Shown one piece after another: positions 23,001-41,290 of a stretch of 64,000 nt of DNA. Source of the stretch: a virus; IMG/VR virus record IMGVR_UViG_3300034200_001443, positions 32,001-96,000 of that record; one strand, written 5' to 3'. Each line of letters opens with the position of its first letter. The first letter of the stretch is position 1. The position numbers and the translations under genes are program-made. The notes below the pieces were generated by a model. That model saw only the letters and a program-made list of their open reading frames with translations. It was not told where the DNA came from and did not search any database.

Positions 23001-24851
23001 TGAAGTTTCAGGAGTCATTGCTTTTTCTTCTCCAGCAGAAGCTTTTAGAGGACGACCTTTAGAGTCAAGTTTAGGAGATTTAATTCCTCGTTCTTCAGTA
23101 ATTTTTTTTGTTTTTTCTGGATCTACAAAAGGATTATATTTACGACGAGTATCTGGTCCAGATTCAAGCCAAGGCTTAAGTATAGGAAGGTTGTATGCAT
23201 TTACTTCCTTAGTCCAATTAGTAAACTTTTCTGGGTAATACTTGTATAAAGGATTGTCTTTAGAAACTTCTTTTTCTACGTTTTGAGGTTGTTGAGGAAC
23301 TGCAGTTTGAGGAGTAGCTCTTAAATTAGAACTTGCAGGTGCTTGAGTTGGTTGTGGATCTGGAGACAGTCTTTGATCTGAAACCCATTGAGGATAATTA
23401 GTTAGCATTAAATTTAAATTTTGTGCGTTTAGTGAAGGAAGAGTTCCTGGCATACGGATAGGTGAATCCATAGGAGTACGAGGCTCACCAAGAATTCCAG
23501 ATGTATCTAATTCTCCTTCTGCAACTGAAGTAGGAATAGGAACGTATGACTCTGCTGGTTCCGTCATATTTGCAGCAATACTAATTAAATTTCCGTTATC
23601 AAGTTCTACTTGAGCAGTTTGTGTTTTAGCGTCAAGAGCACGAATGTTTCCTTGATATTCAGGACGGCCACCGATAATTACACGGCCACCCATCTTTGCA
23701 AACTTACCTGTTTTATCCCTTAACTGAGCAGATGCTTTTTGAGAGCGTTCTTCTGGAGTATAAATACCATCACCTTCACCAGAACTTGGAGTCTCTCCTG
23801 CAGCAGTTAAGCTGTCATCAAAGGAGTCCCATGAATCAGACATTTCATCTTGAAAAGCTAGATCATCTAACAAATCCATATCAATATCTGGGTAGGCTTC
23901 TTGATAAATTTTGCTTTCTTCTGGGTATAGCTTTTCTACCTTATGTGCAATAAATGGTTCGTTGTCGATAAGTGCTGCAATAAAAAGTGCAGTTTCTGTA
24001 TCTACTGGAACGTGTCCACAAGGTGTTTTATCGTTAGGGTTATCAAGAATTTTGTCGTACATAGACATATCAGCGTCTGGCATACCCATATCTTCCCAGT
24101 CGCCATCGTCCCACACATAAATGTGCCCTGCTGGTTCAATTCGATATAAGCGATCAATGCCAGATCCGTCTAAGCGAATACGAGCAAAAAACTCAATAAC
24201 ATTGTCTTCAGGCATTGTCTTTGAAACAATAAAAGAATCGTAATTAATTCTTTTTGGCATTTCAAAATCCATAGGATCTAATCCGCCAGCAGTAATTGAA
24301 TTTGATTTAGCCTTTTTATTTTCACGGTTTACAATTGCAGTAGCCCAAGACTTAGCCGCATCCCCACCCCAAAGAGCCCAAGCGATGCGGCCATTTGATG
24401 GGTAATTCTTTTGTCCCGGCTTGTAGCCAGTTCCCTTTTTATCTACTTCATGACGTGGGAAGTATTTGGCAATGTGTCGGACTTTTCTAATTCCGATTTG
24501 GCCACCCCGAGCAAGCGTGCGAGCGGTATTAAGCCCAACTGATGTTCCTCCTCTATCTTCTTCTTTGCGCCACTCAAGGCCGCGCTTTGCCTCAGCAACT
24601 ACTGAGTCAGGAATCGTATACATACGATCATTATTTGAAAAAACTTTAATATCTAAATTTGTAAGAGCTGCTGCTGCAAGTTCTACAGATGCTCCACTTG
24701 GACGGTTATTTTCTGAATCCCAATTAACTGCTGCAATAAGAGGCTCTTTAACGTCTAAAGCAACAACAAGGTTTTTTGACTCGTCTACTACAGCACCAAA
24801 AGTTTCAGATATGAAGAGAAATCTAGAGCCGTTACGACCAACGTAATCCAT
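20079..24851 (-). CDS. Multi-module prohead (capsid maturation) protease fusion, about 1590 aa
   Basis: Protease core ESGDGR..LPLPLLWQ..GH..VVGKI..GVSADLD..TLVPKPAF; GRVFGHIAAW..HYDDT..GIWVAG domain; extra small head modules. Start at the TAATG overlap (24851). Confidence 0.85.
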   Translation of the reverse strand: MDYVGRNGSRFLFISETFGAVVDESKNLVVALDVKEPLIAAVNWDSENNRPSGASVELAAAALTNLDIKVFSNNDRMYTIPDSVVAEAKRGLEWRKEEDRGGTSVGLNTARTLARGGQIGIRKVRHIAKYFPRHEVDKKGTGYKPGQKNYPSNGRIAWALWGGDAAKSWATAIVNRENKKAKSNSITAGGLDPMDFEMPKRINYDSFIVSKTMPEDNVIEFFARIRLDGSGIDRLYRIEPAGHIYVWDDGDWEDMGMPDADMSMYDKILDNPNDKTPCGHVPVDTETALFIAALIDNEPFIAHKVEKLYPEESKIYQEAYPDIDMDLLDDLAFQDEMSDSWDSFDDSLTAAGETPSSGEGDGIYTPEERSQKASAQLRDKTGKFAKMGGRVIIGGRPEYQGNIRALDAKTQTAQVELDNGNLISIAANMTEPAESYVPIPTSVAEGELDTSGILGEPRTPMDSPIRMPGTLPSLNAQNLNLMLTNYPQWVSDQRLSPDPQPTQAPASSNLRATPQTAVPQQPQNVEKEVSKDNPLYKYYPEKFTNWTKEVNAYNLPILKPWLESGPDTRRKYNPFVDPEKTKKITEERGIKSPKLDSKGRPLKASAGEEKAMTPETSDVPILHMAIVSPDDPQAVMDLVALVPASNKTIEPATYTRKDGKWILDSQILNDLRSATPPPVVVLDDKTLVDVLEQVDNKGESMTAAGGLDRNRGQAEKLRRYWLYGKGAAKIRWRTPGDWTRCYRQLAKYMGPRAKGYCALRHKEANGYWPGDKKNREMTSFSVDTLHNYDELLSTFIMRARAADAKARVMTAGGDMDYDQGSEFYIPLVIPEEVESGDGRVIVKDALSIRDLPLPLLWQIQTGEGHNGSVVVGKIVVMERVDGGIGNAKGYFDKGAYGQEAERLVRGGFIRGVSADLDQFEGDEEVQEVKETSDTKVESGKIKIKKARVMAVTLVPKPAFQECSIQLADELGGEEEEVNIPDGVYVEGVNPLDASALVACGMIAGAIPVNPPKEWFNDPKLTTATPLTVDDDGRVFGHIAAWNVDHIGMSMGTKPPRSRSKYAYFHTGVVRTDDGTDVPVGQLTLAGGHASLEASASEAVRHYDDTASAIADVHAGEDAYGIWVAGSVRPGSTPEQIRALRASAPSGDWRPIKNSLELVAVCQVNVPGFPIARARVASGSVMALVAAGASVLAQLKSDPLLEMKGRLEALERPQKEALVASANDARSRIQAFQNAQLSEQKALIAAKVSKIKVDSDLDYDYMTEMFDDDPENEMGVISRKTRMRLAEEGKALPDGSFPIRNPQDLKNAIRAYGRSRPGSRGKVKRHIMKRAIGLNREEIIPESWKGAASNLDEIVETMKTRATFAAASMNSEAVFSTQEFAEDPIEEEIADLTDEEIEALKTEAKARKDQENDGISRDEDGRAKYTPETQPRDASGKFRQVLARIKQDLGTSGLDRVLDKIAEAENFDSTGDYAGAAKAAGDLLGIIDRLDSGALNAEALENVRISAGELGKVIANLPFAFGEDAEKIRFSDVPPALRDLMKDMITRVEDKIGQEDADEATEGLKKFISGSDLYNQSEISSQMAKLLRLLT

Positions 24852-25561
24852 TATTTGCTCTCCTCTGTAACTGGTCCACCAGCGACCCATGCACGACATG
24901 TGCGGGATGCAGCGCATTTAAAGTCGAATGCTTCACAATACCCTAAATCTCCAGCTTCGATTGAGCCCCAAGCATCATTTCCTTCTTCATTTCCAAGCCC
25001 AGAAGCAATACAATCCAGCATCCTTGGGGTCTGAATAAACACGGCACAATTGCCGCAAAGTTGTTTCTTTGCAGTCTCTTTATCGACAGACCATTCATCT
25101 GCAATTGCTTCCCAATACTCATCGTTTGGTTCTAGAGGATTAAGGGGTCCATACATAGCGGTGTCAATAGCGTTTTTACGGTTATCAAGATTAATGCCAA
25201 TATCTTGAGTAGCTGGAGGGCATCCTTCAGATGTCTCAACAGCTGCTGTCATCGATCTACCTTCGATAGAATAAGCTACTTCATACTTTTTAACATTGTC
25301 ATATGTTAAAGGAGTTTTAGTAGCACTGGCATTATCAAACATTTCTGTAACTATTTTGTAGTCTTCTGGGAGAATGTCCATAATAGACATATTTTCCAAA
25401 CTCTCATCGTCTTCGGATAGCAGTTCCCATTGATTGTTTATTCGAGTAAAAATTCCGTAATCTTCTGTATAAAAAATTTGTTGAAGAATAATGTTGTCAC
25501 CATTTGAGTAGACTAATGAGACACCCTCTTTAGGGTACTCTTTAGCGGAAGAGATCTTCAT
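24851..25561 (-). CDS. Head-associated protein with Cys-rich domain
   Basis: CPPATQD..YGPLNP..CGNC..GYC..FKCAASRTC; coupled on both sides. Confidence 0.7.
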   Translation of the reverse strand: MKISSAKEYPKEGVSLVYSNGDNIILQQIFYTEDYGIFTRINNQWELLSEDDESLENMSIMDILPEDYKIVTEMFDNASATKTPLTYDNVKKYEVAYSIEGRSMTAAVETSEGCPPATQDIGINLDNRKNAIDTAMYGPLNPLEPNDEYWEAIADEWSVDKETAKKQLCGNCAVFIQTPRMLDCIASGLGNEEGNDAWGSIEAGDLGYCEAFDFKCAASRTCRAWVAGGPVTEESK

Positions 25562-25686
25562 AGTTCCTCCATTTCGTCTTCATCTGCCTCGACAGCGTTA
25601 GGGTCTGACTCGGCAATATCCATCAACTTTTTATAAGCTGCGGCAACGAGCTCAGCATACTTTTCTTTATCTGACTTAGTAACCAT
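25558..25686 (-). CDS. 42-aa micro-ORF (MVTKSDKEKYAELVAAAYKKLM...)
   Basis: Manual translation; TAATG overlap with the giant gene stop and ATGA overlap with the next start. Confidence 0.7.
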   Translation of the reverse strand: MVTKSDKEKYAELVAAAYKKLMDIAESDPNAVEADEDEMEEL

Positions 25687-28600
25687 TATACAGTCCTTTC
25701 ATCTTTGTTTTCAGGTTCAGCTTTTTTCTCTGCAGCAATCTCTTCTCCAGTTTTACCTTCACTTCCAACTCCGCTGCCAATTGGATTGCCGTCTTCATCG
25801 ACAGGACCTTCTGGCTCTTCTTGCTTTCCAAGCATATGGTCAACTGCTCTTTGAGCTTGTTTTGCTGCTTTAACGATCATCTGTGGATTATTTTTTACAG
25901 CTGGTAGCCAAGACTTGGCATATGCTGCAACGTTTTCGAAGTCAATTTTTACACCAAGACGACCTGCAACAAGTGCAACGGTAATTTCTGCAATAAGCTC
26001 TTCTTCACCACGGCTTTCTAAGTGCTTTCCATAATTGTCCAGAAGTTCTGTTCTATCCAAACGTGACCTATGACCAGTGCTATGCGCTAATTCGTGAACA
26101 AGAGTTTCAAAGAATGATTGCTCAGACTTGAACTGCTCACGTTGTGGAAGCTTAATAATGTCATCTATAGGGCTATAGAAAGCTTGATCTTGAGCTACAA
26201 ATAGAATTTCTGGCTTGTCTTTGTATGCTTCAAGAATTGCTGTTTCGCCTTCTGTAACTGGAATTGGTTCTCCCTTTACAATTGCTGGAAGATCAATATT
26301 CTCAGCTTGCTCTACGTTAAAGACTGTACGAATTGTAGGTGGTCGATAGACACGAACTTTTTCTTTTGTACCGTCTGGCTTTTCAACCTCTTTAAATATT
26401 TGTGGCCAGTGGATAACTTGAGTTCCCTTTTCACCACGACGAATATTTCCGCCAAGTTTTTCTGCTTTATTGTATGTAAGGAATCTGTTGTCTGTCCAGC
26501 CATTCTTTTCCATAGCTGCCCATAAAACAAGGATGTTTGATCCTTCATAAGTTTTACCTGTAGCAACGCTAGTTGGAAGGAATCCTCCACCAGTCCAAGG
26601 CTTTTGCCATGGGACAGTTCCTCTTTCGATTGCTTCAATAATTGCATTAGCAACTTTTTCAACAGCTGGATCAATTTTTTCAGCTGTTTTAACAGTGCTT
26701 TCATTAAACTCATCTTCAGTTACTTTTTCAGTAGGAAGAGCCATTCCCATAGCTGTTTCTACGGCAGTTGGCTTCTTTGGAGACTCGTCTTCATCTTCAG
26801 TGTATTCTTTAATCCAATTAAGTGGACCTGGATCTAACTTTTTCTGTGCACGAGTAAGTGCAACATATGCAAGACGAAGTTCCTCGTCTACTGGCATTTC
26901 AAGTTCGCCAGTTTTTTTGTTTGTACGAGGACCCCAGAAGTCATCAAAAATACGAACGTTGTTCCACTGTAAGCCCTTTGACTTATGTGCAGTGGTTACA
27001 ATTACATCAATTTCATCTTCTTCTTCACCTGCATCAGGTGCAAAACCTCCTACACCTCTGCGTAGGTCATTAATAGCTTTTTGACGATCTAAATCGTCTT
27101 CAACTTCTTTAAACCACTGCTTACCTGTCGCATCCCAACGGAAATTTTGATCTTTAATTTTGTCCTTACCTTTAAATGTTCCATTACCAGAAAGACGAAT
27201 TGCTTTATCTTTAACTTCATAATTAATACCTTCTCCAATAGAACCCTTAGCTCCATCTTCAGCTTGATCTAAAGTAATCTTCTTAAAATCAGATGATGGT
27301 TTTAGGTCTTTCTTTTCAGACTCAGGTGTAGCAACCTTTACTCTGCTAAGAATATCTTTAATAGATCCAATTCCATTTTGTACAACTAAATCGTATAGGG
27401 CTTTTACTTTTCTACCTTCGCCCTTTTCAACAGCTTCTTTTACCTCAGACCAATTTTTAAATTCTGCAAGATCTGGGTGCATTGTTGGCTTTTTAAACTT
27501 TGTCTGGTCTCCTATAAGCCATGAAGCACTAAGAACAAGGCTTTCTAATTCGTCTTTTGTTCCTTTTGTAATTCCAACAACCTTGCCAGCATCAAGAAGT
27601 TCAATCATTGCTCGGAATCCACCAGAGTTAGTACGGGTGATTACAACATCTGGATCTTCCATTCCATCTACTACTTCACCTTTTGACCCAGAACCTTCAA
27701 CGCGGTACTTAGAATCAAGTTGAGTAAGGAAGCGATTTGCCATTCCAGCAATTTCAGGGCCAAAACGGAAAGATTGAGTTAGTGGAAGATCCCATTTAGC
27801 TGTTGTCCTATCTAACTGGTCTTCTGCTCCACGGAATGCATAGATTGCTTGGTTTCCATCGCCAACATAAACTTTTTGAATAGTTTGATCGGCAATAACC
27901 TTTGCAATAACTGGGTTAATGTCTTGAGCTTCATCAAAAAAGATTACATCTGCTGGAGTTTTCATTCCAGAGCCAATAGAACCTAAATCTGGATTGCTTA
28001 ACGCCCAAATTTTTGTAATGTGAGCATTGTTGATACCAAATACTCCTGCAGGACTGTTTAGATCGTCCCAATAAGCATTGGCATACTCTACAAATGAGCG
28101 AGGAACTTCATCAAGCTCTTCTGTAAAATGTTTAGCACCAAGCTCATCGTCTGCGCTAATTGAAAAGTTATTAACTGCTTGCTTAATTATTGCTGGGATT
28201 TCTCGTGAAGAAAGACTTACTTCTACACCCTTAAGTTTTACACCAGTTGGTTTGATTCCAAGCTCGTCTGCAATATCTTCAGCACGAAGCTTCATATTTG
28301 CAGTTTTACCCTTTTGGTTTAAAAATTTTTGACGAATATCGTTGCTTACACCTTGGAAAGCAATTGAATCACCTGTGCGTGATTCAACATTTTTAGGCAT
28401 CTTGCCTTCTGCTTCCATCTGTACTGTTTTGTTAAATGCAATATAAACAATCTTTTTCTTAGGTTGTTCCTCAAGAAGTCGACGAGCAGCAAGTGTGAGT
28501 GTGCTTGTTTTACCTGTACCAGCTAAGGCACGAACAACGACGTTATCACCAGTCATAATTGCTGTAACTACATTTCGTTGCTCGGCTGTAGGAGGGAATT

Positions 28601-31600
28601 TTTCTCCTGCATATTCGTAGTTATCTTCTGGAAGAGCGTTAGGAACAGCTGAACCTTCTTCAGAAAGCGGTGCCATGTCATAAACTTCAGCTCCCATGTC
28701 TGGAAGTGCCATACCCATTGGAGTTTCTGGAGTATCTTCAGGTTTTCTCCAAACCTTTACCTTATCTGTTAAAAGGTAAACGTCGCCGCCGCCTCCTCTA
28801 GAACCTCTAGTTTTTTTGCCAGTATAAACTTTGTCGTCTCTAATCATCATCTTATGAATCGTAGTTTTTCCACTAGGGTCTAGCTTGTCTCCAGGCTTAA
28901 GATCCTTTGCATCAACTATTGATGAAACTAAACCTCTGGTAGTAGGACCTTCTGGAATAGACATTCCCATTCCCATATCTTCCACACCAGAAGAAAGGAT
29001 GTTATCTCCATCATCAAGGTTAAATACTTCTAAGCTGCTAGCACTAACATTTTCTCTTCTCTTAGTGTCATCATATCTGACCTTGAGATAATTTTTGTAT
29101 TTATTTTTTCCGTACTCTTCCCAGAAAACCGACACTGTTCCAGTTCTTCCATTTTTAACGTTTCTAACTCTATCTCCAGCTTTTATGGCTACGTTGTTAG
29201 CGTCTATGTGGAACTTAGAAGAGCCTTCTCGTGCAATAACCTGATCTTTAATTGTTTCGTCAATATTAAGATCCTTAATTGCTTCTTTAACTTTTTTACC
29301 AGACTTAGCTCCAGATGTAATAGTTTCAATAGCATCTGCAACAACTGAAGCCGCTTGAGGGTCTGTAACCTCTTGACCCTTGACTGGCTTTTGTTTTTCT
29401 GAAATTTTTGGAGTAGGGTCGCTTGGTATTGGTTTTGGCAGAATGTCTTTAATATCTTCAGGTTTAATTTTGCCAATAGAAGATCTACGACGAACTACTC
29501 CTCTAAGTACTTTTCCTCTAGCCCAACCAACTCCTGGAGTTGAAGAAGGTTCTACACGTTCTGAAAAAGGTTTTCCATCTCTTAATCTCTTGCGATAAAT
29601 AATAAGTTTGTCAGAGTTTTCTGGGTCAATTTGAATATCTACAACTTCAACTAATCCTGATGTACCTTCAAGAATATCTCCAATTTGTAGTTCGTCAACT
29701 ACAACAGATCCTCCACCATTAACTGCATAGGTATTCTCATCATCAAGTGCCCAAGCTTCGTTAATAATGTCTCCGAATATAGAAACGTGAGCGTAATCTG
29801 TTACTTTATCTGTAGGTCCATCTGAACCAAAGGTTGATGGTGAAACAGCTTCAGGTTGATCTCCTTGGGCTTTAAAGTCAGCTAAATCTTTTTCATATTG
29901 TTCAAGTTTACTTTCATATTCTGCCTTACGCAGTTCTGGCTCAAATTCTCTATTTTCTGGTTTCATTTTCTTAAGAAGATCTTCTAAAACTATTGGAAGA
30001 ACTTCAGAATCTGTCACGGCATTGTGCCACTGCTTATCTTTTGCATCAACTCCAGCCTTCTTTGCAACAGTTACAAGAGAACTACCTCTAGCAACACCTT
30101 TATTAGCAGCATCTATTTCAATAGTGTCAATAACTCCACCGAAAGAATACTCAATTCCAAATTTTTTGGCCCACTTTTCAAAAGTGTTTGTATCAAATTC
30201 TGCGTTATGAGCAACTAAAATTGCGTCTTTTCCAATAAATTCTGCAAATTTACGAAGCTGATCTTCAATGCTTGGTTGAGTAGATAACCACTCGTCATCA
30301 ACTTTTACACCTTTATTGTCAATAACTTTTTCTGGATTTAGAGCTCTATTGCCATTTTCATCAAGGTAAGGCTCTACTATTCTAGTTTTTCCTACATACC
30401 GTTCTTTTGTGTAGTAGTAGTCATCTAGAGGTTGTCCAGGATTCATAAAGAGATCTATTTCGCCAACTTTTTTACCTTTTTCATATAAAGATGCAGCAAG
30501 TTGAATAGGTGCATCTGGATCATCATAATCAAAACGACCAGTGCCTACCGTTTCAAAGTCAAAGTAAACAACTCTTTCGTCTTTAAGAGCTTCCCAAATA
30601 GCAGCGCCATCTTTTAGTTTTGTTAGTTTTTCAGCTGACCCGAAAAATGCTGGTCTGTTTGGACGATCAGGCTTGCTTAAAGCAGGAGATACTGATGGTT
30701 TGTAATCCTTACCTGCTTCTCTGCGGGCTTCTTCAATTTCAGCTCTCTTTTCAAAATATTCTTTGCCCTTTAAAGTTCCATTTGGAATTCTTTCAATTTC
30801 TGGTTTGTCACCAGATTTTGGCATATTAGCTTCAGACTCTCCTCTGATAGCGCTAATTATTGCTCCTTCATTCCAATCATTCTCTTGGATTGTATGTCCA
30901 GGATAGTAACCACGAACAATTGCTTTTATTTCTACTTCGCCATTGTCTGGTCTTACATATTCTCTCGTTTCTTCAAGAACTTCTGTTACAACAAAGAAAC
31001 GTTCTAATTCTTTAGTTTTTTCATTTACGCTAAATGTAATATCTCCTGGTTTAAGGTCCCTAGCTTTAACCGAAACAATAGAAGCTCTAGGAGCTTGAGC
31101 AGTAGATACAGACTCGACGTCTGTTGGAGGAGTCCATGTTGATTTACGACGATCCAACTCTTCATCGTATTTGGCTCTTGCTTCATTGTAGCCTGGGCTA
31201 TCCCCTCTAAAATCTTCACGCTTTGGTTGACGAAGTTCTGGTAAGTCTCCCTTTTCTGGAGGAGTTGCACCACGATAAACATCAAACAATGTGTCATCTG
31301 CCCAAAGCTTGCTTGATTGTTCAACAGATCCTGGGTAGTAGCCGCTAACAATTGATGCTGGTACTTCTACGCCTTTAACTGTCTTCTTATACCCACCTTC
31401 AACATTTGTAATTGTGAAGAAATCATTGACAGTTACATCGCCTGGTTGAAGATCTGCGCCACGAACTGAGGTCTTAATTGGCTTTGAAGCTTCTGGAGTT
31501 ACTTCTTCAGTTGTAGAAGTTTCTTCAGTAGGAACCTCTACTGACTCTGCTGGTCTCTCACCAAGAACAATTTCATCAATTATTCTGGTAACTTCATCTA

Positions 31601-34600
31601 GCTCATCTTTAAGAGCTTTTTTCTGAGCTGGAGTTGTTTCTTCGGAAAGATCTGCTCTATCAATCTTTCTTTGTATTTTGCGACGTCTGTCAACAAGTGC
31701 TTTAAGAACTTCTTTATCTTTAACGGAAAGAGGAGTTGGTTTTTCTTCAGCTACTTTTGGAGTCTCTTCTTCGGTTGAAGTTTCTTCAGGCTTATCTTCA
31801 GATTCTTCGAGAAGTTTGTCTTCACGCTCTTTACGTTTTCTAGCACGAGCATCAGCCAGCTTGCGACTTCTTTCTTTTCGCTCGTTTTGATCAGCAATAA
31901 TGGCATCCATCTCGTCATAATAAAGATTTAACATATCAATCATGTCTTGATCAGAAAGATTTTCTAGTTTTTTCTTATAATCTTTCATAGAAGAGCGAAT
32001 ATATTGAGACTCATTTCTGTAAGCTCCTGCACCCCACTTAAACCACATAAGTTTAGAGATCATATCTTTTCTGGTACCAAAGTTCCCTGAAACTTTATCG
32101 TCACTTTCTAACTTATCTTTTACTTTATTAACTAGATCGTCAACAGTGGGCTTTGGTCCCTCTTCTGTTATTACATCAACAATAGTTTCTTCAACAATAG
32201 TTTCTTCTGGCTTAGGAGTTCTGGAAGGCTTTTCTGTTTCTTCGTCGAGTATAACTTCTGGAGTTTCTACGGTTTCAGAAGTTGTTTCATCTCCTTCAAC
32301 AGGTTCAGTGTCTTCTTTTTCTCTGTCTTTTCCAAATATAGCGTCTTCTAAACGTTTAAGCGCTTTTGCCTCATCTAAGTTTTTCTTAAGAAGATCTTCT
32401 TCTTCCTTTACTCTTTCTTCATCTCCACTAATTTTTGCAAGTGCAATTGCTCTATTTCCATAAACAATAGCGTTTTCATAGTAGCGACCAGGCGTTAAAT
32501 CTTGATTTACTTGTTCACGGAGCTCGTCAGTAAGATCTTCAAATTCTGGCATATTTTCTTTACGAATATCCCCGATGTTTGCGTTAAGCCACTCTGCTGC
32601 TTCTTTTAATTCTGGGCTTCCAAAGTAGTCATTAATTTCTTCTTCGTTGCCCTTGTTAAACCATCCGTCAGCTCCAATTCCAAATATTGGGTACCACTTT
32701 CCTACAGGAACATTTTTCTTTCCTCCGCTACCTGTGCTAATATAAAACGGCATTCGTACTCCGTTAACATTAATTAACACGATAGGGCGACCAGCAAGAT
32801 TAAATACTGGAGTTTCAATCTCTTCTCCGTTTGGCCCAGTGATTTTAATCATTTGAATTCCATCACGCTTTATTAATTTATCTTTTAATTCAGAAGATGG
32901 AGGTACTGGTGTTGATTCTGTTGTAGCAGCAGTCTCATCTACTTCATCCTCTGAATCAAAATCAATAGGGTCTTGTCCAGAACGAGGCTGTAAATCAATA
33001 TTAAAACGATCACGAAGCTCACGGGCAAAAGCCTTAAACTCTTTATCTTCTTGTAGTGCTGTTTGTGCCTTAACGTTAATAGTTCTACCATCACGTTCTA
33101 CGGTGTCAGACCAAGTAAAACCATTTTCAGCTAAGAAGTCTGCAATATCTTTGTCACGGAAAGGAGCTCCTTTACCGCCACGAAGCAGTGTTCGCTTTCC
33201 AGAACGCTTGTATGTAATTATCTTTTTTGGAGGTCCTTCGTCTCCGTCAGTTGGTGGGGGACCTGATGGAGGAGCGCCAGCGGCTTCTTTTTCTTCTTCT
33301 TCAAGAATTTCTTCATCAATTTTACCTTGCTGTGTAGCGTCATACTCACCTGCAGGAGTTCCTTCAGGATACACACGTTCTACATCTTTGTAATTATCAT
33401 TCCAATACTTAAGTGCATCTTCAAAACTAGGAAATTCGTCAGTTGAGTCATTATCTATGTTTGCATCAGTAATGATGTACCAGTGAGGTTTAGTACCTTC
33501 TCTATCTTGATAACCAATAATGTCTCCAGTTTTTTTATCGGAGACCATTTGGTTATCTGTTCCTTCTACAAGACCCCAACCTTCGGGAAGAGTCTCTGGA
33601 ACCGATACTTTTCCTGTATCTGTTTCATCTTCTGAAATATCTTCAGATAAAGGATTCGGGTTACGCTCTCTCCAACCTTCAATAGATTCTAAAGAATCAT
33701 TAATAGATTCTTTAACTGCATCTACAAGTTTTTGATATTTCTCATCGTCAGAAGTTGTAGAATCTACAGCTTCTTTAAACTCTTTTAATGCTGCTTCTGC
33801 ATCATCATATTTGTCTAAATCTTTTCCTTCTAAGAAAGACTTGTAAGACTCTATAAGATCGTTGAGGTCCTTTTCATAGTCAGGATCATCACCAAATAGA
33901 TTTTGAGCTCTTAAAATTGGATTCAGAATATCTAAATCATTCCAACTATCTGTTTTTGTAAAACCTAAAGCTTTTCGTAAATTATCTCTGCGCTTTTGCC
34001 CTTTTTTAGCGGCTTCCTGCTGTCTCTTACGAGCACGACTTTCTGATTCTTTCTTTTCTTTAGCTAAATCTAATGTGCCGTTAGCAATATCTTTAAGAAC
34101 TCTATTTGCATCTTGACCACGCAATGCAATGGCATCACGCCAAGATTCTGCAGAAACTGAAGAAGGGACAAACTCCCCATTTTCATCAAGAGTTAATACA
34201 TCTGAGCTTCCACCATTTTTAATGGAATCGTCAAGACCTTTAATAAGGTCATCATCAGAAAAATTTCTAACTGAAGCTAAACTAACAGCTTCTTCTTTAT
34301 CAGCTTTAGAAGACTCTAAAGGCGTATACATTCCTTCAGGAAAATTAATATTTTCGTTTTTAGGTATAAACGGCATGTAGTCATCGTTATCAATTACTGA
34401 CTGTTTTTCTGCCCTAGAAAGACCCGCTAAAGCTGGTATTCGATTTAAAGCTTCTAACATATCTTCATTGCTTACAGTTTCGTCTTCTTCAGAGATTTCA
34501 GCAACTGGCTTTTCTGGTGTTTCTGATTCTTTTGAAACTACCTCATCAAAAACTTCATCTAACTCTTTAGGCTCTGCTGCTTTTTCTTTTCTTTCCTTTG

Positions 34601-36269
34601 AACGAGATTCAGTTAAAGCTTTTTCGTTTTCAGAGTTATTGTTGATCGTGTCATAAGCTTTTGCAAGAGCCATCTCTGTATCTCCACCTTGCTCGGAGAT
34701 TGCACTTAGGATTGCCTCAGCTGGTACTTCAAACTCTTCCCCATTTTCATCTTCAAGACGACCTAAACCAGTTGCAGGTGTTTTTGAATTTACAGGCTCT
34801 AAAGCATCAACAAGACCGTTTTGCAGTTCATCTTCACTTTGCATTGCAGCAAGCATTGCTGGATCGTCTTCAGATCCTTCTGGAATATAGTTGTAGTTTG
34901 GATCTAATTCTAAAGAGCGCTCTGGTACGTTGTATTTAAATTGGTCTGAAGGAAGTTTTGCTTTTTCTTCTGTTTTCTTAGCTGCTTTTTTCTTTCCACC
35001 TTTAAGATCTTTAGCTAAAGCAACTGATTCCTCTTCTTCGCCCTGCTCAAATTTTTCTTCATCGTCTATTTTTTCTTTACGAGAAATTTCAGCTAAAGCA
35101 TCTTTCCAATTTTGTGCAAAAGCAAACTGAGTGTTTTCTCCACGCTTATTAACAGCAAAAAGTTTACGATCTGGATCCCAAAGCTTTCCATCCTCTCCAA
35201 GCTTTACTTGACGAGGATCTTCTAAATCTAATTCTCTACTACGTTTAATTGCTGCATCAATAAGGTCACGAGTTTGTGGGCTTGGCCCATCAAAAACTGT
35301 TACATCAAATGATTCATCTGTATATTTATTTCCTGGACCTTTATAATCTTTATCTGAACGAAAACCCGATGGTGCTTCCATAAAAGCTAGGCTGTCTTCA
35401 GGAACTACTGGTGCATTATCATCAATATCTAAATCTGATGCTCTTACATAACCATTTTTACGAGCTTCATCGCTTGAGTCATCTAGGAAAGCTTCTGGCT
35501 GCTCACCTTGTGAAATTGGGACTGCTGCAATACGACCATCTGGAAGTTCCATATCAAGAAGATCTGGACTAAAGATGTTTTGACCTAAGATGCGACCTGT
35601 AGCACTTGCCTTACCGCCATCACGAAGACCAAGAATAAGTTTAAATGTTCCAAACATCTCTGCGAATCGACCCTTACGGTCACGGCGCTGTAGCTTTGCA
35701 CGAGCAGAACGGGCGGCTCGAGAGTTTCCATCTCCGTATGCTGCAACTAAAGCTTGAAGAGGAACTGTTCCTTGTGGAAGAAGTTCTATGCGCTTCATTG
35801 CATATATGTGCTCTGGTGAATCTGGGTGAGACATCATTGCTGAAGCTAGTAGAGTCTTTACAGAGTCATCTTTAAGCTTTGGATCGTCTATTACCCAATT
35901 AATCTGAGCCTGACGTACTGCTGCTGCAGTCATTGAATGAGCTCTTGTTGATCTTGGGTGTGATATTGGAAGTAAATCTGTATTAAAAGCAGTAAGTCCT
36001 ACTACTTTATTATTTTTAGCTAATGCTATGTATGTAGATAGCTCAGAAAAAGCTTGATACTTACGAATGGAAAAAGGAAGTCCTTTGCTTTTAGCAAGAG
36101 ATCTAGCAATTACTTTATAAGCAGATCTTTTACTTACACGACGTGATGTGGAAGAGAACTCGTTTGCTTTTTCTAAAATTTCTAAGGCTTCAGATCTAAT
36201 AATACGAGCTTGTTCTCTAGTAGAAAATACTCTTTCTGAAGTATGAAGTATTGGAGATTTATTATCCAT
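25686..36269 (-). CDS. Giant 3527-aa multidomain protein: DEDDh exonuclease + UvrD-like SF1 helicase + ArdC/zincin
   Basis: YFDFET, VAHNAEFD, HNAVTD (DEDDh); ALAGTGKT, FDEAQD, VGDGNQAIYAFRGA, HKSKGLQW, YVALTRA (SF1); VPWQKPW..IRRGEKG..VFNVEQ, HELAHSTGH..EELIAE (ArdC). Confidence 0.9.
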   Translation of the reverse strand: MDNKSPILHTSERVFSTREQARIIRSEALEILEKANEFSSTSRRVSKRSAYKVIARSLAKSKGLPFSIRKYQAFSELSTYIALAKNNKVVGLTAFNTDLLPISHPRSTRAHSMTAAAVRQAQINWVIDDPKLKDDSVKTLLASAMMSHPDSPEHIYAMKRIELLPQGTVPLQALVAAYGDGNSRAARSARAKLQRRDRKGRFAEMFGTFKLILGLRDGGKASATGRILGQNIFSPDLLDMELPDGRIAAVPISQGEQPEAFLDDSSDEARKNGYVRASDLDIDDNAPVVPEDSLAFMEAPSGFRSDKDYKGPGNKYTDESFDVTVFDGPSPQTRDLIDAAIKRSRELDLEDPRQVKLGEDGKLWDPDRKLFAVNKRGENTQFAFAQNWKDALAEISRKEKIDDEEKFEQGEEEESVALAKDLKGGKKKAAKKTEEKAKLPSDQFKYNVPERSLELDPNYNYIPEGSEDDPAMLAAMQSEDELQNGLVDALEPVNSKTPATGLGRLEDENGEEFEVPAEAILSAISEQGGDTEMALAKAYDTINNNSENEKALTESRSKERKEKAAEPKELDEVFDEVVSKESETPEKPVAEISEEDETVSNEDMLEALNRIPALAGLSRAEKQSVIDNDDYMPFIPKNENINFPEGMYTPLESSKADKEEAVSLASVRNFSDDDLIKGLDDSIKNGGSSDVLTLDENGEFVPSSVSAESWRDAIALRGQDANRVLKDIANGTLDLAKEKKESESRARKRQQEAAKKGQKRRDNLRKALGFTKTDSWNDLDILNPILRAQNLFGDDPDYEKDLNDLIESYKSFLEGKDLDKYDDAEAALKEFKEAVDSTTSDDEKYQKLVDAVKESINDSLESIEGWRERNPNPLSEDISEDETDTGKVSVPETLPEGWGLVEGTDNQMVSDKKTGDIIGYQDREGTKPHWYIITDANIDNDSTDEFPSFEDALKYWNDNYKDVERVYPEGTPAGEYDATQQGKIDEEILEEEEKEAAGAPPSGPPPTDGDEGPPKKIITYKRSGKRTLLRGGKGAPFRDKDIADFLAENGFTWSDTVERDGRTINVKAQTALQEDKEFKAFARELRDRFNIDLQPRSGQDPIDFDSEDEVDETAATTESTPVPPSSELKDKLIKRDGIQMIKITGPNGEEIETPVFNLAGRPIVLINVNGVRMPFYISTGSGGKKNVPVGKWYPIFGIGADGWFNKGNEEEINDYFGSPELKEAAEWLNANIGDIRKENMPEFEDLTDELREQVNQDLTPGRYYENAIVYGNRAIALAKISGDEERVKEEEDLLKKNLDEAKALKRLEDAIFGKDREKEDTEPVEGDETTSETVETPEVILDEETEKPSRTPKPEETIVEETIVDVITEEGPKPTVDDLVNKVKDKLESDDKVSGNFGTRKDMISKLMWFKWGAGAYRNESQYIRSSMKDYKKKLENLSDQDMIDMLNLYYDEMDAIIADQNERKERSRKLADARARKRKEREDKLLEESEDKPEETSTEEETPKVAEEKPTPLSVKDKEVLKALVDRRRKIQRKIDRADLSEETTPAQKKALKDELDEVTRIIDEIVLGERPAESVEVPTEETSTTEEVTPEASKPIKTSVRGADLQPGDVTVNDFFTITNVEGGYKKTVKGVEVPASIVSGYYPGSVEQSSKLWADDTLFDVYRGATPPEKGDLPELRQPKREDFRGDSPGYNEARAKYDEELDRRKSTWTPPTDVESVSTAQAPRASIVSVKARDLKPGDITFSVNEKTKELERFFVVTEVLEETREYVRPDNGEVEIKAIVRGYYPGHTIQENDWNEGAIISAIRGESEANMPKSGDKPEIERIPNGTLKGKEYFEKRAEIEEARREAGKDYKPSVSPALSKPDRPNRPAFFGSAEKLTKLKDGAAIWEALKDERVVYFDFETVGTGRFDYDDPDAPIQLAASLYEKGKKVGEIDLFMNPGQPLDDYYYTKERYVGKTRIVEPYLDENGNRALNPEKVIDNKGVKVDDEWLSTQPSIEDQLRKFAEFIGKDAILVAHNAEFDTNTFEKWAKKFGIEYSFGGVIDTIEIDAANKGVARGSSLVTVAKKAGVDAKDKQWHNAVTDSEVLPIVLEDLLKKMKPENREFEPELRKAEYESKLEQYEKDLADFKAQGDQPEAVSPSTFGSDGPTDKVTDYAHVSIFGDIINEAWALDDENTYAVNGGGSVVVDELQIGDILEGTSGLVEVVDIQIDPENSDKLIIYRKRLRDGKPFSERVEPSSTPGVGWARGKVLRGVVRRRSSIGKIKPEDIKDILPKPIPSDPTPKISEKQKPVKGQEVTDPQAASVVADAIETITSGAKSGKKVKEAIKDLNIDETIKDQVIAREGSSKFHIDANNVAIKAGDRVRNVKNGRTGTVSVFWEEYGKNKYKNYLKVRYDDTKRRENVSASSLEVFNLDDGDNILSSGVEDMGMGMSIPEGPTTRGLVSSIVDAKDLKPGDKLDPSGKTTIHKMMIRDDKVYTGKKTRGSRGGGGDVYLLTDKVKVWRKPEDTPETPMGMALPDMGAEVYDMAPLSEEGSAVPNALPEDNYEYAGEKFPPTAEQRNVVTAIMTGDNVVVRALAGTGKTSTLTLAARRLLEEQPKKKIVYIAFNKTVQMEAEGKMPKNVESRTGDSIAFQGVSNDIRQKFLNQKGKTANMKLRAEDIADELGIKPTGVKLKGVEVSLSSREIPAIIKQAVNNFSISADDELGAKHFTEELDEVPRSFVEYANAYWDDLNSPAGVFGINNAHITKIWALSNPDLGSIGSGMKTPADVIFFDEAQDINPVIAKVIADQTIQKVYVGDGNQAIYAFRGAEDQLDRTTAKWDLPLTQSFRFGPEIAGMANRFLTQLDSKYRVEGSGSKGEVVDGMEDPDVVITRTNSGGFRAMIELLDAGKVVGITKGTKDELESLVLSASWLIGDQTKFKKPTMHPDLAEFKNWSEVKEAVEKGEGRKVKALYDLVVQNGIGSIKDILSRVKVATPESEKKDLKPSSDFKKITLDQAEDGAKGSIGEGINYEVKDKAIRLSGNGTFKGKDKIKDQNFRWDATGKQWFKEVEDDLDRQKAINDLRRGVGGFAPDAGEEEDEIDVIVTTAHKSKGLQWNNVRIFDDFWGPRTNKKTGELEMPVDEELRLAYVALTRAQKKLDPGPLNWIKEYTEDEDESPKKPTAVETAMGMALPTEKVTEDEFNESTVKTAEKIDPAVEKVANAIIEAIERGTVPWQKPWTGGGFLPTSVATGKTYEGSNILVLWAAMEKNGWTDNRFLTYNKAEKLGGNIRRGEKGTQVIHWPQIFKEVEKPDGTKEKVRVYRPPTIRTVFNVEQAENIDLPAIVKGEPIPVTEGETAILEAYKDKPEILFVAQDQAFYSPIDDIIKLPQREQFKSEQSFFETLVHELAHSTGHRSRLDRTELLDNYGKHLESRGEEELIAEITVALVAGRLGVKIDFENVAAYAKSWLPAVKNNPQMIVKAAKQAQRAVDHMLGKQEEPEGPVDEDGNPIGSGVGSEGKTGEEIAAEKKAEPENKDERTV

Positions 36270-36272
36270 TTA

Positions 36273-37418
36273 CTACTTCTCTACATTTGGTAGTAAGTCT
36301 GCATCTAAACTTTCTTTTCCTAAAGAAGCTAAGATAGATGCTCTTTTAAATGGATCTTCTCCATTACGAACTGCACGAAGCCAAGATGCACGAATTGCGT
36401 GCTCTGCTTCATATCCATAGCCAGAATATTCAGCCATAGCAAGAATTGCTTGCTCTGGTGACTCGTAGTCTTCTTCTTTACCTAAGAAAGACTCTAGCTC
36501 TTCCTGATAACTCCACTGTTCTGAAAGCTCTGCTAGTTCTTGTTCTGATTGGATTTCGTTTCCAAGTTTTTCCCCTTCGAGAACTCCAACATCAACGACG
36601 CCATCTGGAATAACCGCGAAACGACACTTACCTTCGTCTTCGACTTCAAGTTCGATGATTCGGCATTGGCTATTACCCATGTATAAAACACAGTTAGAGC
36701 ATTTGACTCCGATACCTCTGACGTCATTTTCTTCTGGTGGTGTATATCCTGCCCAGATTCCTGTGGCATCTTCATTAAATTTTCCATATTTGTCTGCAAT
36801 CTCGATTAGCGCTTCTGCTAAATCGCTCTCTTCAGGAACCAAACCTGCTGAAGCTGCAATGGAGTTTGATTTCTTTGTTGAACGTGGGTGACCAGAAGGC
36901 AGTAAATCATTATCTGTTGTGTATGCAGAGTTTGATGGCTTTCCAGACTTCAACAATTTTAAAAACGCATTTACGCGACCCATTGCCCATTGGTTGCGAG
37001 TCATTCCTGGTCGATGCGAAACGCTGTAAGCACCTGCACCTCTGCGATAAACAGCTTTTAACATTCCAACTGTTGCACGACGACCTTTTTTAGCTTTTTC
37101 GTTATGAGTTTCAACTTTATTCTTCAAAGACTTTTCTACAGCTGCTGAAAATTTAACTTTACGAGTTCCTGATGCAGATCCTTTTTTATTTTTGCTAGAA
37201 CCTTTAATTTGATCTTTTTTAGGGGCAGGTGTTTGAGAAATTGTTCTTTTTTTCTTTGCTGCAAACTCTGAATCATCTGAAGCATCAACAGGAACACAGT
37301 TAGGAACCATTTTTCCGTCTTTGCCCTTTTTCATTCCAACTTGCTTATAGCCGTCCCAGCAAGGGTCTCCTGCAGATACAAGTGAGGTAGTTACAATGTC
37401 GATTGATTCGTCAGACAT
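36273..37418 (-). CDS. Modular head-associated protein (three small modules incl. HiPIP-like Cys cluster)
   Basis: PCWDGYKQVGMK..VPNCVP; KAVYRRGAGAY..QWAMGRVNAF; KCSNC..C..C; directly after the portal. Confidence 0.75.
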   Translation of the reverse strand: MSDESIDIVTTSLVSAGDPCWDGYKQVGMKKGKDGKMVPNCVPVDASDDSEFAAKKKRTISQTPAPKKDQIKGSSKNKKGSASGTRKVKFSAAVEKSLKNKVETHNEKAKKGRRATVGMLKAVYRRGAGAYSVSHRPGMTRNQWAMGRVNAFLKLLKSGKPSNSAYTTDNDLLPSGHPRSTKKSNSIAASAGLVPEESDLAEALIEIADKYGKFNEDATGIWAGYTPPEENDVRGIGVKCSNCVLYMGNSQCRIIELEVEDEGKCRFAVIPDGVVDVGVLEGEKLGNEIQSEQELAELSEQWSYQEELESFLGKEEDYESPEQAILAMAEYSGYGYEAEHAIRASWLRAVRNGEDPFKRASILASLGKESLDADLLPNVEK

Positions 37419-39154: not shown

Positions 39155-39192
39155 GGTTACTCCTTGTCATCCTAGTTACGGAATATGAAGTC

Positions 39193-39489
39193 TTACTTAT
39201 CTTCATATGCAGTCAACAGTCCCGCAATAGCAGATACAGCAAAAACTGTAGCAACTATATAAGTTACTGATGGAATAATGATAGCCGAAATTACGAACCC
39301 TGATCCTATCCAAACGCTAAAACACCACTCACAAGTAGATAAATAACCTAGTCGAGAAGACTCTGGCGGAAACTTACCCCAAAAAGCATTACGAAGGGAG
39401 GCTGTAATGGTATCCCTTGTTATCAAGCGAGTCACACGATAAGTGCCTAGCCCAAGAAGTAGAAACTGAAGAAGGGTCATATCTGTCAT
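39193..39489 (-). CDS. DUF1360-like membrane protein
   Basis: YRVTRLITRDTI..CEWCFSVW with hydrophobic helices. Confidence 0.75.
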   Translation of the reverse strand: MTDMTLLQFLLLGLGTYRVTRLITRDTITASLRNAFWGKFPPESSRLGYLSTCEWCFSVWIGSGFVISAIIIPSVTYIVATVFAVSAIAGLLTAYEDK

Positions 39490-40692: not shown

Positions 40693-40844
40693 GGTCCTAT
40701 TGTACCGACTTTTTAAAGGGTGTACGAAAAGATAGTCTGCCTAATCTTGTACGGAATAGCTAAATATATGAACCTTTCCATATTTTGCTTTTGACCCCGG
40801 AGAAGGATATGTATGTTTTTGGCAATTCTGCAAATCGTTCCGGG

Positions 40845-41190: not shown

Positions 41191-41214
41191 ATCTATAAAA
41201 AATCTTGTTTAGAC

Positions 41215-41244: not shown

Positions 41245-41290
41245 TTACTTATTGGAGCAAGGGGCTTCAATAACACAAAGGGAGAAACAA

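What the first reader, a model, noticed from the sequence alone, without database searches (positions are those of the whole stretch)
25686..36269. 3527-aa exonuclease-helicase-ArdC giant encoded inside the head-assembly operon: candidate virion-delivered DNA-protection polyprotein
Seen in sequence: the gene lies between the portal and prohead protease and is translationally coupled to head genes. It carries a DEDDh exonuclease (~30580-29990), an intact UvrD-like helicase (~28600-26830) and a C-terminal ArdC ssDNA-binding + HExxH zincin unit (~26650-25830). Acidic linkers and unassigned globular domains separate these (e.g. PFYISTG..GGKK..GKWYPIFG at ~32800-32650). Established: this slot normally holds MuF or ejected proteins; ArdC is a plasmid anti-restriction factor; P1 DarB is a packaged, injected protector. 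Inference: replication-type enzymes expressed late in a head operon make most sense if they are packaged and injected to protect, resect or circularise the incoming genome.
Basis: partly seen in the sequence, partly recalled or inferred. Interest (0 to 1): 0.88.

Follow-up and report, generated by a model that had tools for sequence, protein, structure and literature searches.

The report
Giant polyvalent head-cargo protein of lake phage
A 3,527-residue phage protein encoded among the head genes joins a conserved anchor region to an exonuclease, a helicase and an ArdC anti-restriction unit; it is most likely loaded into the capsid and injected with the DNA, a strategy already predicted for such "polyvalent" proteins.

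Summary
Window 25686-36269 (-) is one intact 3,527-aa ORF. It carries a DEDDh exonuclease, a complete UvrD-type helicase and a full ArdC unit (ArdC-N plus HExxH zincin). It lies in a gapless gene chain: portal, p381, giant, 42-aa ORF, p236, protease-containing p1612, major capsid protein. The host record is a complete 134-kb lake phage.

The gene is not a chimera. The same architecture appears in 46 of 120 listed relatives, and contigs from four other lake metagenomes tile it.

It belongs to the "polyvalent protein" class (Iyer et al. 2017), which was already predicted to be packaged and injected.

Specific to this family:
- A conserved ~740-aa non-MuF header sits in front of swappable cargo.
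- Three short motifs are shared with p381 and p1612.
- Met-rich MGM[AS][LI]P junction motifs flank the helicase and ArdC modules.
- Cysteine is almost absent: 52 Cys in 382,916 residues of 120 relatives.

Packaging is inferred, not shown. The scan found this family before on other DNA (e1-5797971), with the same reading.

The parts
25686..36269 (-). Whole giant ORF: 3,527 aa, about 390 kDa, no Cys, net charge -171.
34050..36269 (-). Conserved N-terminal header, aa 1-740. It is present in all 119 other listed relatives. No Pfam match and no clear fold match.
35922..35978 (-). Motif DLLPxxHPRST followed by SMTAA, aa 98-116. The p381 neighbour has a matching stretch at its aa 137-190.
35655..35753 (-). 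Motif ALVAA-x-GDGNS...LQRRDRKGRF, aa 173-205. It holds 6 of the header's 10 invariant columns and has low pLDDT in the model. The Q-x-[RK]D-x-x-G-[KR]-F part recurs twice in p1612.
31500..34049 (-). Variable middle, aa 741-1590. It contains a small alpha/beta unit (aa ~1016-1095), the beta-rich PFYISTG unit (aa ~1127-1195) and long charged helices (aa ~1210-1570). It is shared with only a few to about 40 of the 119 relatives, depending on the segment.
30840..31478 (-). Two repeated small beta-barrels, aa ~1598-1667 and ~1730-1810 (DLxPGD...GYYPG). They precede the exonuclease in about 91 of 119 relatives. The only structural matches are weak, to eIF5A-type barrels.
29970..30587 (-). DEDDh (RNase T / DnaQ-like) 3'-5' exonuclease, aa ~1895-2100, with all three Exo motifs.
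28953..28976 (-). Met-rich junction motif 1 (MGMGMSIP), aa 2432-2439.
28701..28718 (-). Met-rich junction motif 2 (MGMALP), aa 2518-2523, about 65 aa before the helicase Walker A.
26820..28613 (-). UvrD/FBH1-like SF1 helicase, aa ~2553-3150, with motifs I-VI and a ~200-aa insert.
26733..26750 (-). Met-rich junction motif 3 (MGMALP), aa 3174-3179, just before the ArdC unit.
26358..26663 (-). ArdC-N ssDNA-binding domain, aa 3203-3304.
25857..26195 (-). Zincin MPTase-PolyVal domain, aa 3359-3471, with HELAH at 3392 and EELIAE at 3423.
37418..39154 (-). Portal protein (phrog_776, 4e-108).
36273..37418 (-). p381, a DUF5824-containing protein. Its aa 137-190 are homologous to giant aa 65-117.
25558..25686 (-). 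Conserved 42-aa ORF. It overlaps the giant's stop (TAATG) and the p236 start (ATGA).
24851..25561 (-). p236, conserved downstream partner with no family match here.
20079..24917 (-). p1612, with a prohead-protease-like domain at aa ~850-1257. It carries two Q-x-RD-x-x-GKF motifs (aa 400 and 1453) and five [SA][LMIV][TV]A[ASG] motifs.
17826..19910 (-). Major capsid protein (phrog_777).

Best explanation
The gene encodes a phage-type polyvalent protein that is a capsid cargo.

Inferred steps:
1. It is made late, together with the head proteins.
2. Its conserved ~740-aa header brings it into the prohead. The header's short motifs also occur in p381 and in the protease-bearing p1612.
3. It is trimmed there by the prohead protease.
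4. The acidic, cysteine-free chain of small modules is stored in the capsid and leaves through the tail with the DNA.
5. In the new host the C-terminal zincin may cut at the Met-rich MGMALP junctions and free the helicase and ArdC modules.
6. ArdC-N would then cover single-stranded DNA and blunt type I restriction. The 3'-5' exonuclease and UvrD-type helicase would process or clear the incoming DNA ends, for example at the terminal repeats.

Shown: the domains, the intact motifs, the context, the modularity and the composition.
Inferred: packaging, cleavage, ejection and every activity.
For: The domains are intact and confidently assigned. The record is a complete 134,380-bp phage with terminal repeats.

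Gene junctions are abutting or overlapping. Promoter-like and terminator-like sites show no excess over shuffles in 24000-41500: 18 against 35 expected, and 12 against 14.

Synteny: all 83 fetched loci (80 distinct contigs, 3 fetched twice) show the same order and strand. The portal is upstream in 82. A p381-like gene is present in 81. A p1612-like gene is downstream in the 40 loci that reach that far, by my count.

Cultured relatives hold giants in the same slot: DSL-LC01 3,289 aa, Pumpernickel gp82 2,235 aa, Zooman gp70 1,764 aa, Mimi gp77 2,709 aa.

The header is conserved while cargo varies. My tally of the 120 listed relatives:
- 46: exonuclease + UvrD + ArdC-N + MPTase.
- 1: the same without UvrD.
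- 1: the same without exonuclease.
- 4: UvrD + PF23802.
- 49: exonuclease without ArdC.
- 4: PI3_PI4-kinase-like only.
- 15: no Pfam domain.
One protein also carries an ADP-ribosyltransferase domain.

Shared motifs:
- [RK]DxxG[KR][FWY] occurs 3 times in the 88-ORF proteome, all in the giant and p1612. The shuffle mean is 0.12.
- That motif is kept in 54 of 80 giants and 23 of 26 p1612 homologues.
- DLLPxxHPxS[TS] is kept in 80 of 80 giants and 70 of 78 p381 homologues.
- p381 aligns to the giant N-terminus at pairwise E 1e-5.

Cysteine: 0 of 3,527 residues here and 52 of 382,916 in 120 relatives, with 88 of 120 at zero. The phage's ORF set averages 0.63%, and its replication enzymes have 1.0-1.3%.

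Precedents read:
- P1 DarB is 251 kDa, is encoded next to portal and protease, is found in virions, and has an N-terminal 30-residue targeting signal (PMC9024508, passages).
- phi24B gp47, a 2,811-aa polyvalent protein, was detected in virions by proteomics (preprint 10.64898/2026.04.10.717836, passages).
Against: There are no virion proteomics, expression data or biochemistry for this phage or its relatives.

The header matches no known capsid-targeting or MuF domain.

R388 ArdC works when expressed in the recipient, and its protease activity was not needed for anti-restriction (PMC7213743, abstract). So delivery as protein is not required for ArdC function.

Helicase and proofreading-type exonuclease are ordinary replication or repair activities.

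Cysteine avoidance is not general among the head proteins. The portal has an invariant Cys and p1612 has 8 Cys.

The link between Met-rich motifs and MPTase is confounded. The motifs travel with the helicase and ArdC modules, and the proteins are related.
Confidence: 0.62

Rival explanations
1. It is a late cytoplasmic DNA-processing enzyme that is not packaged. In this reading the exonuclease, helicase and ssDNA binder act on replicating or concatemeric phage DNA near the packaging machine. The head-operon position only provides timing.
For: Helicase and DnaQ-like exonuclease are typical replication or repair domains. Among the ORFs I scanned I found no DNA polymerase and no other exonuclease of this type. 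ArdC acts when expressed inside the recipient cell (PMC7213743, abstract).
Against: The phage has a separate replication and recombination module: PrimPol-D5, SNF2 helicase, PD-(D/E)XK nuclease and AAA_24. A cytoplasmic enzyme would not need a 740-aa header with motifs shared with p381 and p1612. It would not need near-total loss of cysteine. Nor would it be expected to swap freely for kinase-like, NUDIX or ADP-ribosyltransferase cargo in the same slot.
Confidence: 0.17
2. It is mainly a structural or assembly protein of the large head, such as an internal core, a scaffold or a size determinant. The enzyme domains would be passengers, and it would be degraded or stay in the capsid rather than being injected.
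For: It lies among scaffold and protease genes. It has long charged helices at aa ~1210-1570 and a strongly acidic composition. In P1, Dar proteins are tied to head morphogenesis (PMC9024508 passages; PMC12810830 abstract listing).
Against: Only the header is conserved. Length ranges widely, from about 1,700 to 5,731 aa among uninterrupted ORFs. That fits a ruler or scaffold poorly. Catalytic motifs are fully kept.
Confidence: 0.12
3. The Met-rich junction motifs are internal translation starts. They would yield free helicase-ArdC and ArdC proteins from the same mRNA, not cleavage sites.
For: Each motif begins with Met codons placed exactly before the helicase and ArdC modules.
Against: The 30 nt upstream of the Met codons at aa 2518 and 3174 lack the AGGAG-like sites seen before most of the operon's annotated starts. 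The same hexapeptide, not just a Met, is repeated.
Confidence: 0.06
4. It is an assembly chimera or a fused mis-assembly.
For: It comes from a metagenomic record. Some related contigs carry interrupted versions.
Against: The same protein cluster was seen on 13 contigs, and the same architecture appears in 46 of 120 listed relatives. Twenty lake-water runs hold 84-100% of the gene's sampled words. Contigs from four runs not flagged as the source tile the gene and both ends at 95% identity or more (most at 99% or more), with no insertions or deletions listed.
Confidence: 0.02

Closest known systems
Phage-type polyvalent proteins (Iyer, Burroughs, Anand, de Souza, Aravind 2017; PMC5512222)
   Same: A very large protein that combines unrelated activities. 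It has the two hub domains ArdC-N and zincin MPTase. It is encoded among late virion genes of a portal-terminase phage. The predicted logic is the same: package, inject, possibly self-process by the MPTase.
   Different: No MuF or other known virion domain was found. The header is a family-specific ~740-aa region. The paper's main text does not mention a DEDDh, DnaQ or RNase T exonuclease domain (DnaQ and DEDD have 0 occurrences; the single hits for 'exonuclease' and 'RNase T' are a reference title and the phrase 'RNase toxin'). It names UvrD-type helicases only in Streptomyces plasmid giants. I could not see its supplements, which list all architectures.
Phage P1 DarB and the Dar system
   Same: A ~250-kDa helicase-bearing anti-restriction protein encoded beside the portal and prohead protease. 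It is found in virions, has an N-terminal capsid-targeting signal, and is believed to enter the cell with the DNA (PMC9024508, abstract and passages).
   Different: No homology was tested here. The Pfam scan found no methyltransferase domain in this protein. That DarB has one is recalled, not checked. DarB needs helper proteins, and its signal is about 30 residues rather than a 740-aa header.
Plasmid R388 ArdC (PDB 6i89)
   Same: The C-terminal 330 aa match full-length ArdC at 3e-42, covering both domains, with HExxH and the downstream Glu.
   Different: Here the unit is the tail of a 3,527-aa phage protein, not a free plasmid protein. R388 ArdC acts when expressed in the recipient, and its protease activity was dispensable (PMC7213743, abstract).
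Stx phage phi24B gp47
   Same: A 2,811-aa polyvalent protein with a metallopeptidase domain. It was detected in virions by proteomics and proposed to be an ejection protein (preprint 10.64898/2026.04.10.717836, passages).
   Different: Its domains differ (LPD domains, MuF-C peptidase), it comes from a podovirus, and its proposed role is as a conduit. No sequence comparison was made here.
Same family in another genome of this scan (e1-5797971)
   Same: A 3,613-aa cysteine-free giant between the portal and capsid genes of a freshwater actinophage. It has an anchor, an exonuclease, a helicase and ArdC.
   Different: That relative has a second zinc protease. More distant relatives here likewise show a second HExxH, but this protein has one.

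Membership tests
Polyvalent proteins (Iyer et al. 2017) | Two or more domains of disparate biochemical activity in one polypeptide | tested here: met
   Exonuclease, SF1 helicase, ssDNA binder and zincin peptidase.
Polyvalent proteins (Iyer et al. 2017) | Encoded by a phage or conjugative element. For phages, it lies among late virion genes of a portal-terminase system. | tested here: met
   Complete phage record. Portal, protease-like protein and capsid genes flank it. TerL is present elsewhere. Synteny holds in 83 loci.
Polyvalent proteins (Iyer et al. 2017) | Hub domains MPTase and/or ArdC-N | tested here: met
   PF18818 at 2e-29 and PF08401 at 6e-31.
Polyvalent proteins (Iyer et al. 2017) | Carried in the virion and delivered with the DNA | not testable with these tools
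   Only indirect support: context, shared motifs and Cys avoidance.
MuF / SPP1 gp7 head proteins | Phage_Mu_F domain | tested here: inconclusive
   No Pfam MuF hit in the giant at E up to 0.1, nor in p381, p236 or p1612 at E up to 0.01. BFVD rows named MuF-like or head-morphogenesis appear only at E 0.09-0.12.
ArdC anti-restriction proteins | ArdC-N ssDNA-binding domain followed by a zincin domain with HExxH and a downstream Glu | tested here: met
   (6i89, residues 11-284 of 297).
ArdC anti-restriction proteins | Relief of type I restriction | not testable with these tools
   Needs an assay.
UvrD/Rep/PcrA-type SF1 helicases | Helicase motifs I, II, III, IV, V and VI | tested here: met
   GTGKT, DEAQD, GDGNQ, SFRF, TAHKSKG and LTRA. 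Pfam UvrD-helicase and UvrD_C. FBH1 at 2e-25. Assigning these strings to motif numbers is from recall.
DEDDh (DnaQ/RNase T) exonucleases | Exo I DxE, Exo II D, Exo III Hx4D | tested here: met
   FDFET at 1903, HNAEFD at 2021, HNAVTD at 2082. PF00929 at 5e-13. PolC exonuclease 2p1j.
P1 DarB | Methyltransferase plus helicase with an N-terminal 30-residue capsid-targeting signal | not tested
   No sequence comparison with DarB was run. Pfam shows no methyltransferase domain here.

The most novel reading that the evidence does not exclude
These lake actinophages may use a modular cargo-loading system written in short peptides. A header would carry DLLPxxHPRST, hydrophobic-[TV]-A-[AS] and Q-x-RD-x-x-G-[KR]-F signals, which are shared with p381 and the protease polyprotein. 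That header would dock any cargo of up to about 5,700 aa into the prohead and mark it for trimming. The cargo's own zincin would later cut at Met-rich MGMALP junctions to release a helicase and an ArdC unit inside the host. This would be a self-unpacking injected polyprotein. Its header could serve as a general tag for packaging proteins into capsids.
Probability: 0.3. Interest if true: 0.75.

Novelty: new variant of a known kind. Interest (0 to 1): 0.5.

Why it matters
If it is packaged, this family would be an abundant natural example of phages delivering very large enzyme assemblies with their DNA. At least 297 IMG/VR loci encode relatives, and 20 lake metagenome runs hold this gene.

Three points make it useful:
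- The cargo can be read directly from the sequence and differs between close relatives. That is a record of which host defences matter in lakes.
- The conserved header and short motifs give concrete, testable candidates for a capsid-targeting tag and for protease sites.
- Cultured relatives on laboratory hosts (Arthrobacter phage Mimi, Microbacterium phages Zooman and Pumpernickel) make the packaging question directly testable.

As a class, however, the idea is already published.

Tried and rejected
Nucleotide search. Megablast of the gene against 50,697 phage records found nothing.

Header fold searches. Foldseek of the header model gave no match at E <= 0.001 against PDB or BFVD. VIA-align wide gave a best Z of 5.7, to small helical binders only. 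The model has 750 residues, so single domains were poorly tested.

Middle region. Foldseek of the aa 1000-1900 model gave no match at E <= 0.001. Only weak eIF5A-type barrel rows appeared, at probability about 0.9 over 77-88 columns. Pfam on ten tiles of unassigned sequence at E <= 1 gave nothing at or above a curated cut-off. The ESM Atlas search of aa 1125-1290 gave no usable hit.

Complex prediction. The job with the portal and giant aa 1-260 returned no verdict, with scores of 0.00 and 0.01. It counts neither for nor against binding.

Sequencing runs. No RNA holder was listed for the gene, so nothing can be said about expression.

Programmed frameshift at the header end. I rejected this idea. 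The split giant in L040 comes from a 32-nt deletion relative to L043. Other splits fall at different places. Most short 'header-only' proteins sit on short contigs.

Internal starts at the MGM motifs. I judged these unlikely.

Zooman gp69. It is not related to the giant's first 190 aa or to p381.

Literature. Searches for 'actinophages + freshwater + ArdC' found 0 papers. 'DSL-LC01' found one genome paper, which I saw only as a search listing. 'Pumpernickel/Zooman' found nothing relevant. So I found no printed description of this family. Supplements of PMC5512222 were not visible and may list it.

Full report
WHAT IS THERE

Window 25686-36269 on the minus strand is a single open frame of 3,527 codons with an ATG start. 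Pfam places four confident units in its second half:
- RNase_T exonuclease, aa 1992-2090, 5e-13.
- UvrD-helicase, aa 2562-2816, 2e-15, with UvrD_C at aa 3084-3145.
- ArdcN, aa 3203-3304, 6e-31.
- MPTase-PolyVal, aa 3359-3471, 2e-29.

PHROGs agrees: DNA helicase at 3e-85 and anti-restriction protein at 6e-73. Against PDB sequences, the last 330 residues match full-length ArdC of plasmid R388 (6i89, 3e-42, residues 11-284 of 297). The helicase matches FBH1 (2e-25), and the exonuclease matches the PolC proofreading domain (2e-6).

All catalytic strings are present:
- Exonuclease: FDFET, HNAEFD, HNAVTD.
- Helicase: GTGKT, DEAQD, GDGNQ, SFRF, TAHKSKG, LTRA.
- Zincin: HELAH and EELIAE.

About two thirds of the protein has no family match, even when tiled.

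CONTEXT

The window lies in a 134,380-bp virus record with direct terminal repeats, rated complete. The gene order on the minus strand is as follows:
- Portal, 37418-39154.
- A 381-aa DUF5824 protein, p381.
- The giant.
- A 42-aa ORF.
- A 236-aa protein, p236.
- A 1,612-aa protein with a prohead-protease-like domain, p1612.
- The major capsid protein.
- Then tail genes.

Three nucleotides separate the p381 stop from the giant's ATG. The giant's stop overlaps the 42-aa ORF's start (TAATG), and that ORF's stop overlaps the p236 start (ATGA). The 42-aa ORF is conserved in 18 locus rows. Promoter-like and terminator-like sites are not enriched in the region.

Replication and recombination genes lie elsewhere: PrimPol-D5, SNF2 helicase, PD-(D/E)XK nuclease, AAA_24 and RNR.

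NOT AN ARTEFACT

- The identical protein cluster was seen on 13 contigs.
- Twenty lake-water runs hold 84-100% of the gene's sampled words.
- Contigs from four runs not flagged as the source tile the gene and bridge both ends at 95% identity or more (most at 99% or more). No insertions or deletions are listed.

RELATIVES

By portal similarity, the phage is related to Actinomycetia phage DSL-LC01 (73%) and to large Microbacterium and Arthrobacter phages. Each has a giant in the same slot:
- DSL-LC01: 3,289 aa.
- Pumpernickel gp82: 2,235 aa.
- Zooman gp70: 1,764 aa.
- Mimi gp77: 2,709 aa, annotated as a helicase.

The helicase module is 39% identical to the one in the Arthrobacter phages. The DSL-LC01 giant shares only the N-terminus (32% over aa 17-340) and one more short block. 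Pumpernickel and Zooman share only the motif around aa 171-229, which sits at their own N-termini.

A search with aa 1-340 found 195 proteins of 1,939-6,173 aa. My tally of the 120 listed:
- 46 carry exonuclease + UvrD + ArdC-N + MPTase.
- 1 lacks UvrD.
- 1 lacks the exonuclease.
- 4 carry UvrD + PF23802.
- 49 carry the exonuclease without ArdC, and a few of these add NUDIX, PF12294, kinase-like, RyR or WYL domains.
- 4 have only a PI3_PI4-kinase-like hit.
- 15 have no Pfam domain.
- One protein adds an ADP-ribosyltransferase domain.

BLAST coverage along the protein shows the following:
- aa 1-740 are shared by all 119 relatives.
- aa 750-1000 and 1150-1350 are shared by about 5-18.
- aa 1600-2150 are shared by about 91-94.
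- aa 2550-3527 are shared by about 47-50.

IMG/VR holds 297 loci that encode relatives. In the 83 fetched loci (80 distinct contigs), order and strand are always the same. Portal identity is 57-96%, while the header is only 31-85% identical. Uninterrupted giants reach 5,731 aa.

THE HEADER

An AlphaFold model of aa 1-750, built from a 32-row alignment, has a mean pLDDT of 77. It contains:
- Helical bundles at aa 17-178.
- A small beta-barrel after aa 206.
- Further alpha/beta units.
- Two similar repeats at about aa 445-545 and 640-735.

The stretch that holds 6 of the header's 10 invariant columns, aa 180-205 (GNS...LQRRDRKGRF), is the least confident part. That fits a linear motif that needs a partner. 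No known fold or family was recognised.

Three short motifs tie the header to its neighbours:
1. aa 65-117, ending in DLLPISHPRSTRAHSMTAAA, align with p381 aa 137-190 (35% identity, pairwise E 1e-5). The core motif is kept in 80 of 80 giants and 70 of 78 p381 homologues (three contigs are counted twice).
2. [RK]DxxG[KR][FWY] occurs three times in the 88 ORFs of 120 aa or more: once in the giant and twice in p1612. Shuffles give 0.12. It is kept in 54 of 80 giants and 23 of 26 p1612 homologues. The other giants have a QLSDRFERW variant.
3. [SA][LMIV][TV]A[ASG], which other first readers proposed as a protease site, is enriched. It occurs five times in p1612 (0.12 expected) and three times in the giant (0.20 expected), and it also occurs in p236 and the capsid protein.

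In both the giant and p1612, a copy of motif 3 lies shortly before the RD motif.

JUNCTION MOTIFS

MGM[AS][LI]P occurs three times in the proteome, all in the giant. The sites are aa 2434 and 2518, before the helicase, and aa 3174, before ArdC.

Related Met-rich strings sit at the same offsets in divergent relatives. The offsets are about -160 and -80 from the Walker A and about -220 from HExxH. The pattern is found in 26 of 46 full-architecture relatives and in 0 of 68 relatives without MPTase. This contrast is confounded by module content and by relatedness.

Upstream DNA at aa 2518 and 3174 lacks ribosome-binding sites like those before most of the operon's annotated starts.

COMPOSITION

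The giant has no cysteine and a net charge of -171. The 120 relatives have 52 Cys in 382,916 residues, and 88 have none.

The phage's ORF set averages 0.63% Cys. Its replication enzymes have 1.0-1.3%, while the capsid, tape-measure-size and fibre-like proteins have none. The portal and p1612 do contain Cys.

INTERPRETATION

The protein fits the published class of phage polyvalent proteins (PMC5512222; sections 8, 27 and 32 and passages read). That class is multi-activity, has ArdC-N and MPTase as hub domains, and is encoded among virion genes. Its members were predicted to be packaged, injected and possibly self-processed.

Experimental precedents are:
- P1 DarB, next to portal and protease, with an N-terminal targeting signal (PMC9024508).
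- phi24B gp47, found in virions (2026 preprint).

I therefore rate 'capsid cargo injected with the DNA' as the most likely reading, at about 0.6. The rivals are a late cytoplasmic enzyme, a mainly structural role, internal starts, and a chimera.

What each module does after entry is inference. ArdC-N binds ssDNA and R388 ArdC counters type I restriction (PMC7213743, abstract). The 3'-5' exonuclease with a UvrD-type helicase could expose or clear ends at the terminal repeats, or strip host proteins.

NOVELTY

The class and its logic are known. An earlier follow-up in this scan reached the same reading on a 3,613-aa relative (e1-5797971).

Not found in print by my searches or in the main text of PMC5512222:
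- This header.
- Its motif sharing with p381 and the protease protein.
- The Met-rich junctions.
- The DEDDh exonuclease as the commonest cargo.
- The near-total cysteine avoidance.

I could not see the supplements.

Noticed in passing
window 25558-25686 (-): A 42-aa acidic ORF overlaps the giant's stop and the p236 start. It contains an ELVAAA string. It is conserved in 18 locus rows (tblastn E <= 1e-3).
   Followed up: partly
window 24851-24917: p236 and p1612 overlap by 67 nt in different frames. A similar ~60-nt overlap recurs in relatives (for example L020, L021, L023, L024, L027). The listed p1612 start has a poor ribosome-binding site. Either the true start is elsewhere or a frameshift fusion is possible.
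   Followed up: no
L022, L026, L029, L031, L034-L039, L063, L064, L067, L070, L090, L091: In several relatives a second p236-like segment lies between the portal and p381, in addition to the copy after the giant.
   Followed up: no
L001 34536-35270 (DSL-LC01): The gene in the p236 position of DSL-LC01 is annotated as a high potential iron-sulfur protein. Earlier notes of this scan (e1-5952209, e1-5927588) also saw HiPIP-like Cys spacing in this head protein.
   Followed up: no
G000:C1:9427-18117 (+), outside the window (L006): A second giant ORF of 2,896 aa has only E1_FCCH-like repeat hits and 2 Cys. Collagen-repeat proteins lie nearby.
   Followed up: no
L058 2851-20046, L054 4485-20864, L088 9992-25543: Relatives of the giant reach 5,731, 5,459 and 5,183 aa.
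   Followed up: no
P0017-P0047: More distant full-architecture relatives have a second HExxH 290-630 residues after the ArdC zincin. This matches the 'second zinc protease' of e1-5797971. This window's protein has only one.
   Followed up: no
L040 12201-12250; also L035, L036, L041: Some related contigs carry interrupted giants. In L040 the cause is a 32-nt deletion relative to L043, inside the header's last repeat.
   Followed up: yes
window 25736-30600 and loose ends inside the gene: One low-depth contig in run X16 joins 25736 to 30600, which would drop the exonuclease, helicase and ArdC. Its side is only 21 letters with 9 extra letters, so this is weak. Many contigs also diverge at points inside the gene, suggesting co-occurring strain variants.
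   Followed up: no
window 27000-27602 and 32880-33272: Two short segments look like copies of one small unit with the pattern L-x-G-x-G-x-F-[RK]-x-KD...F-x-W. They lie at aa ~1025-1060 and, within the helicase insert, at aa ~3020-3060. The second has a faint DUF5710 hit at E 0.93.
   Followed up: no
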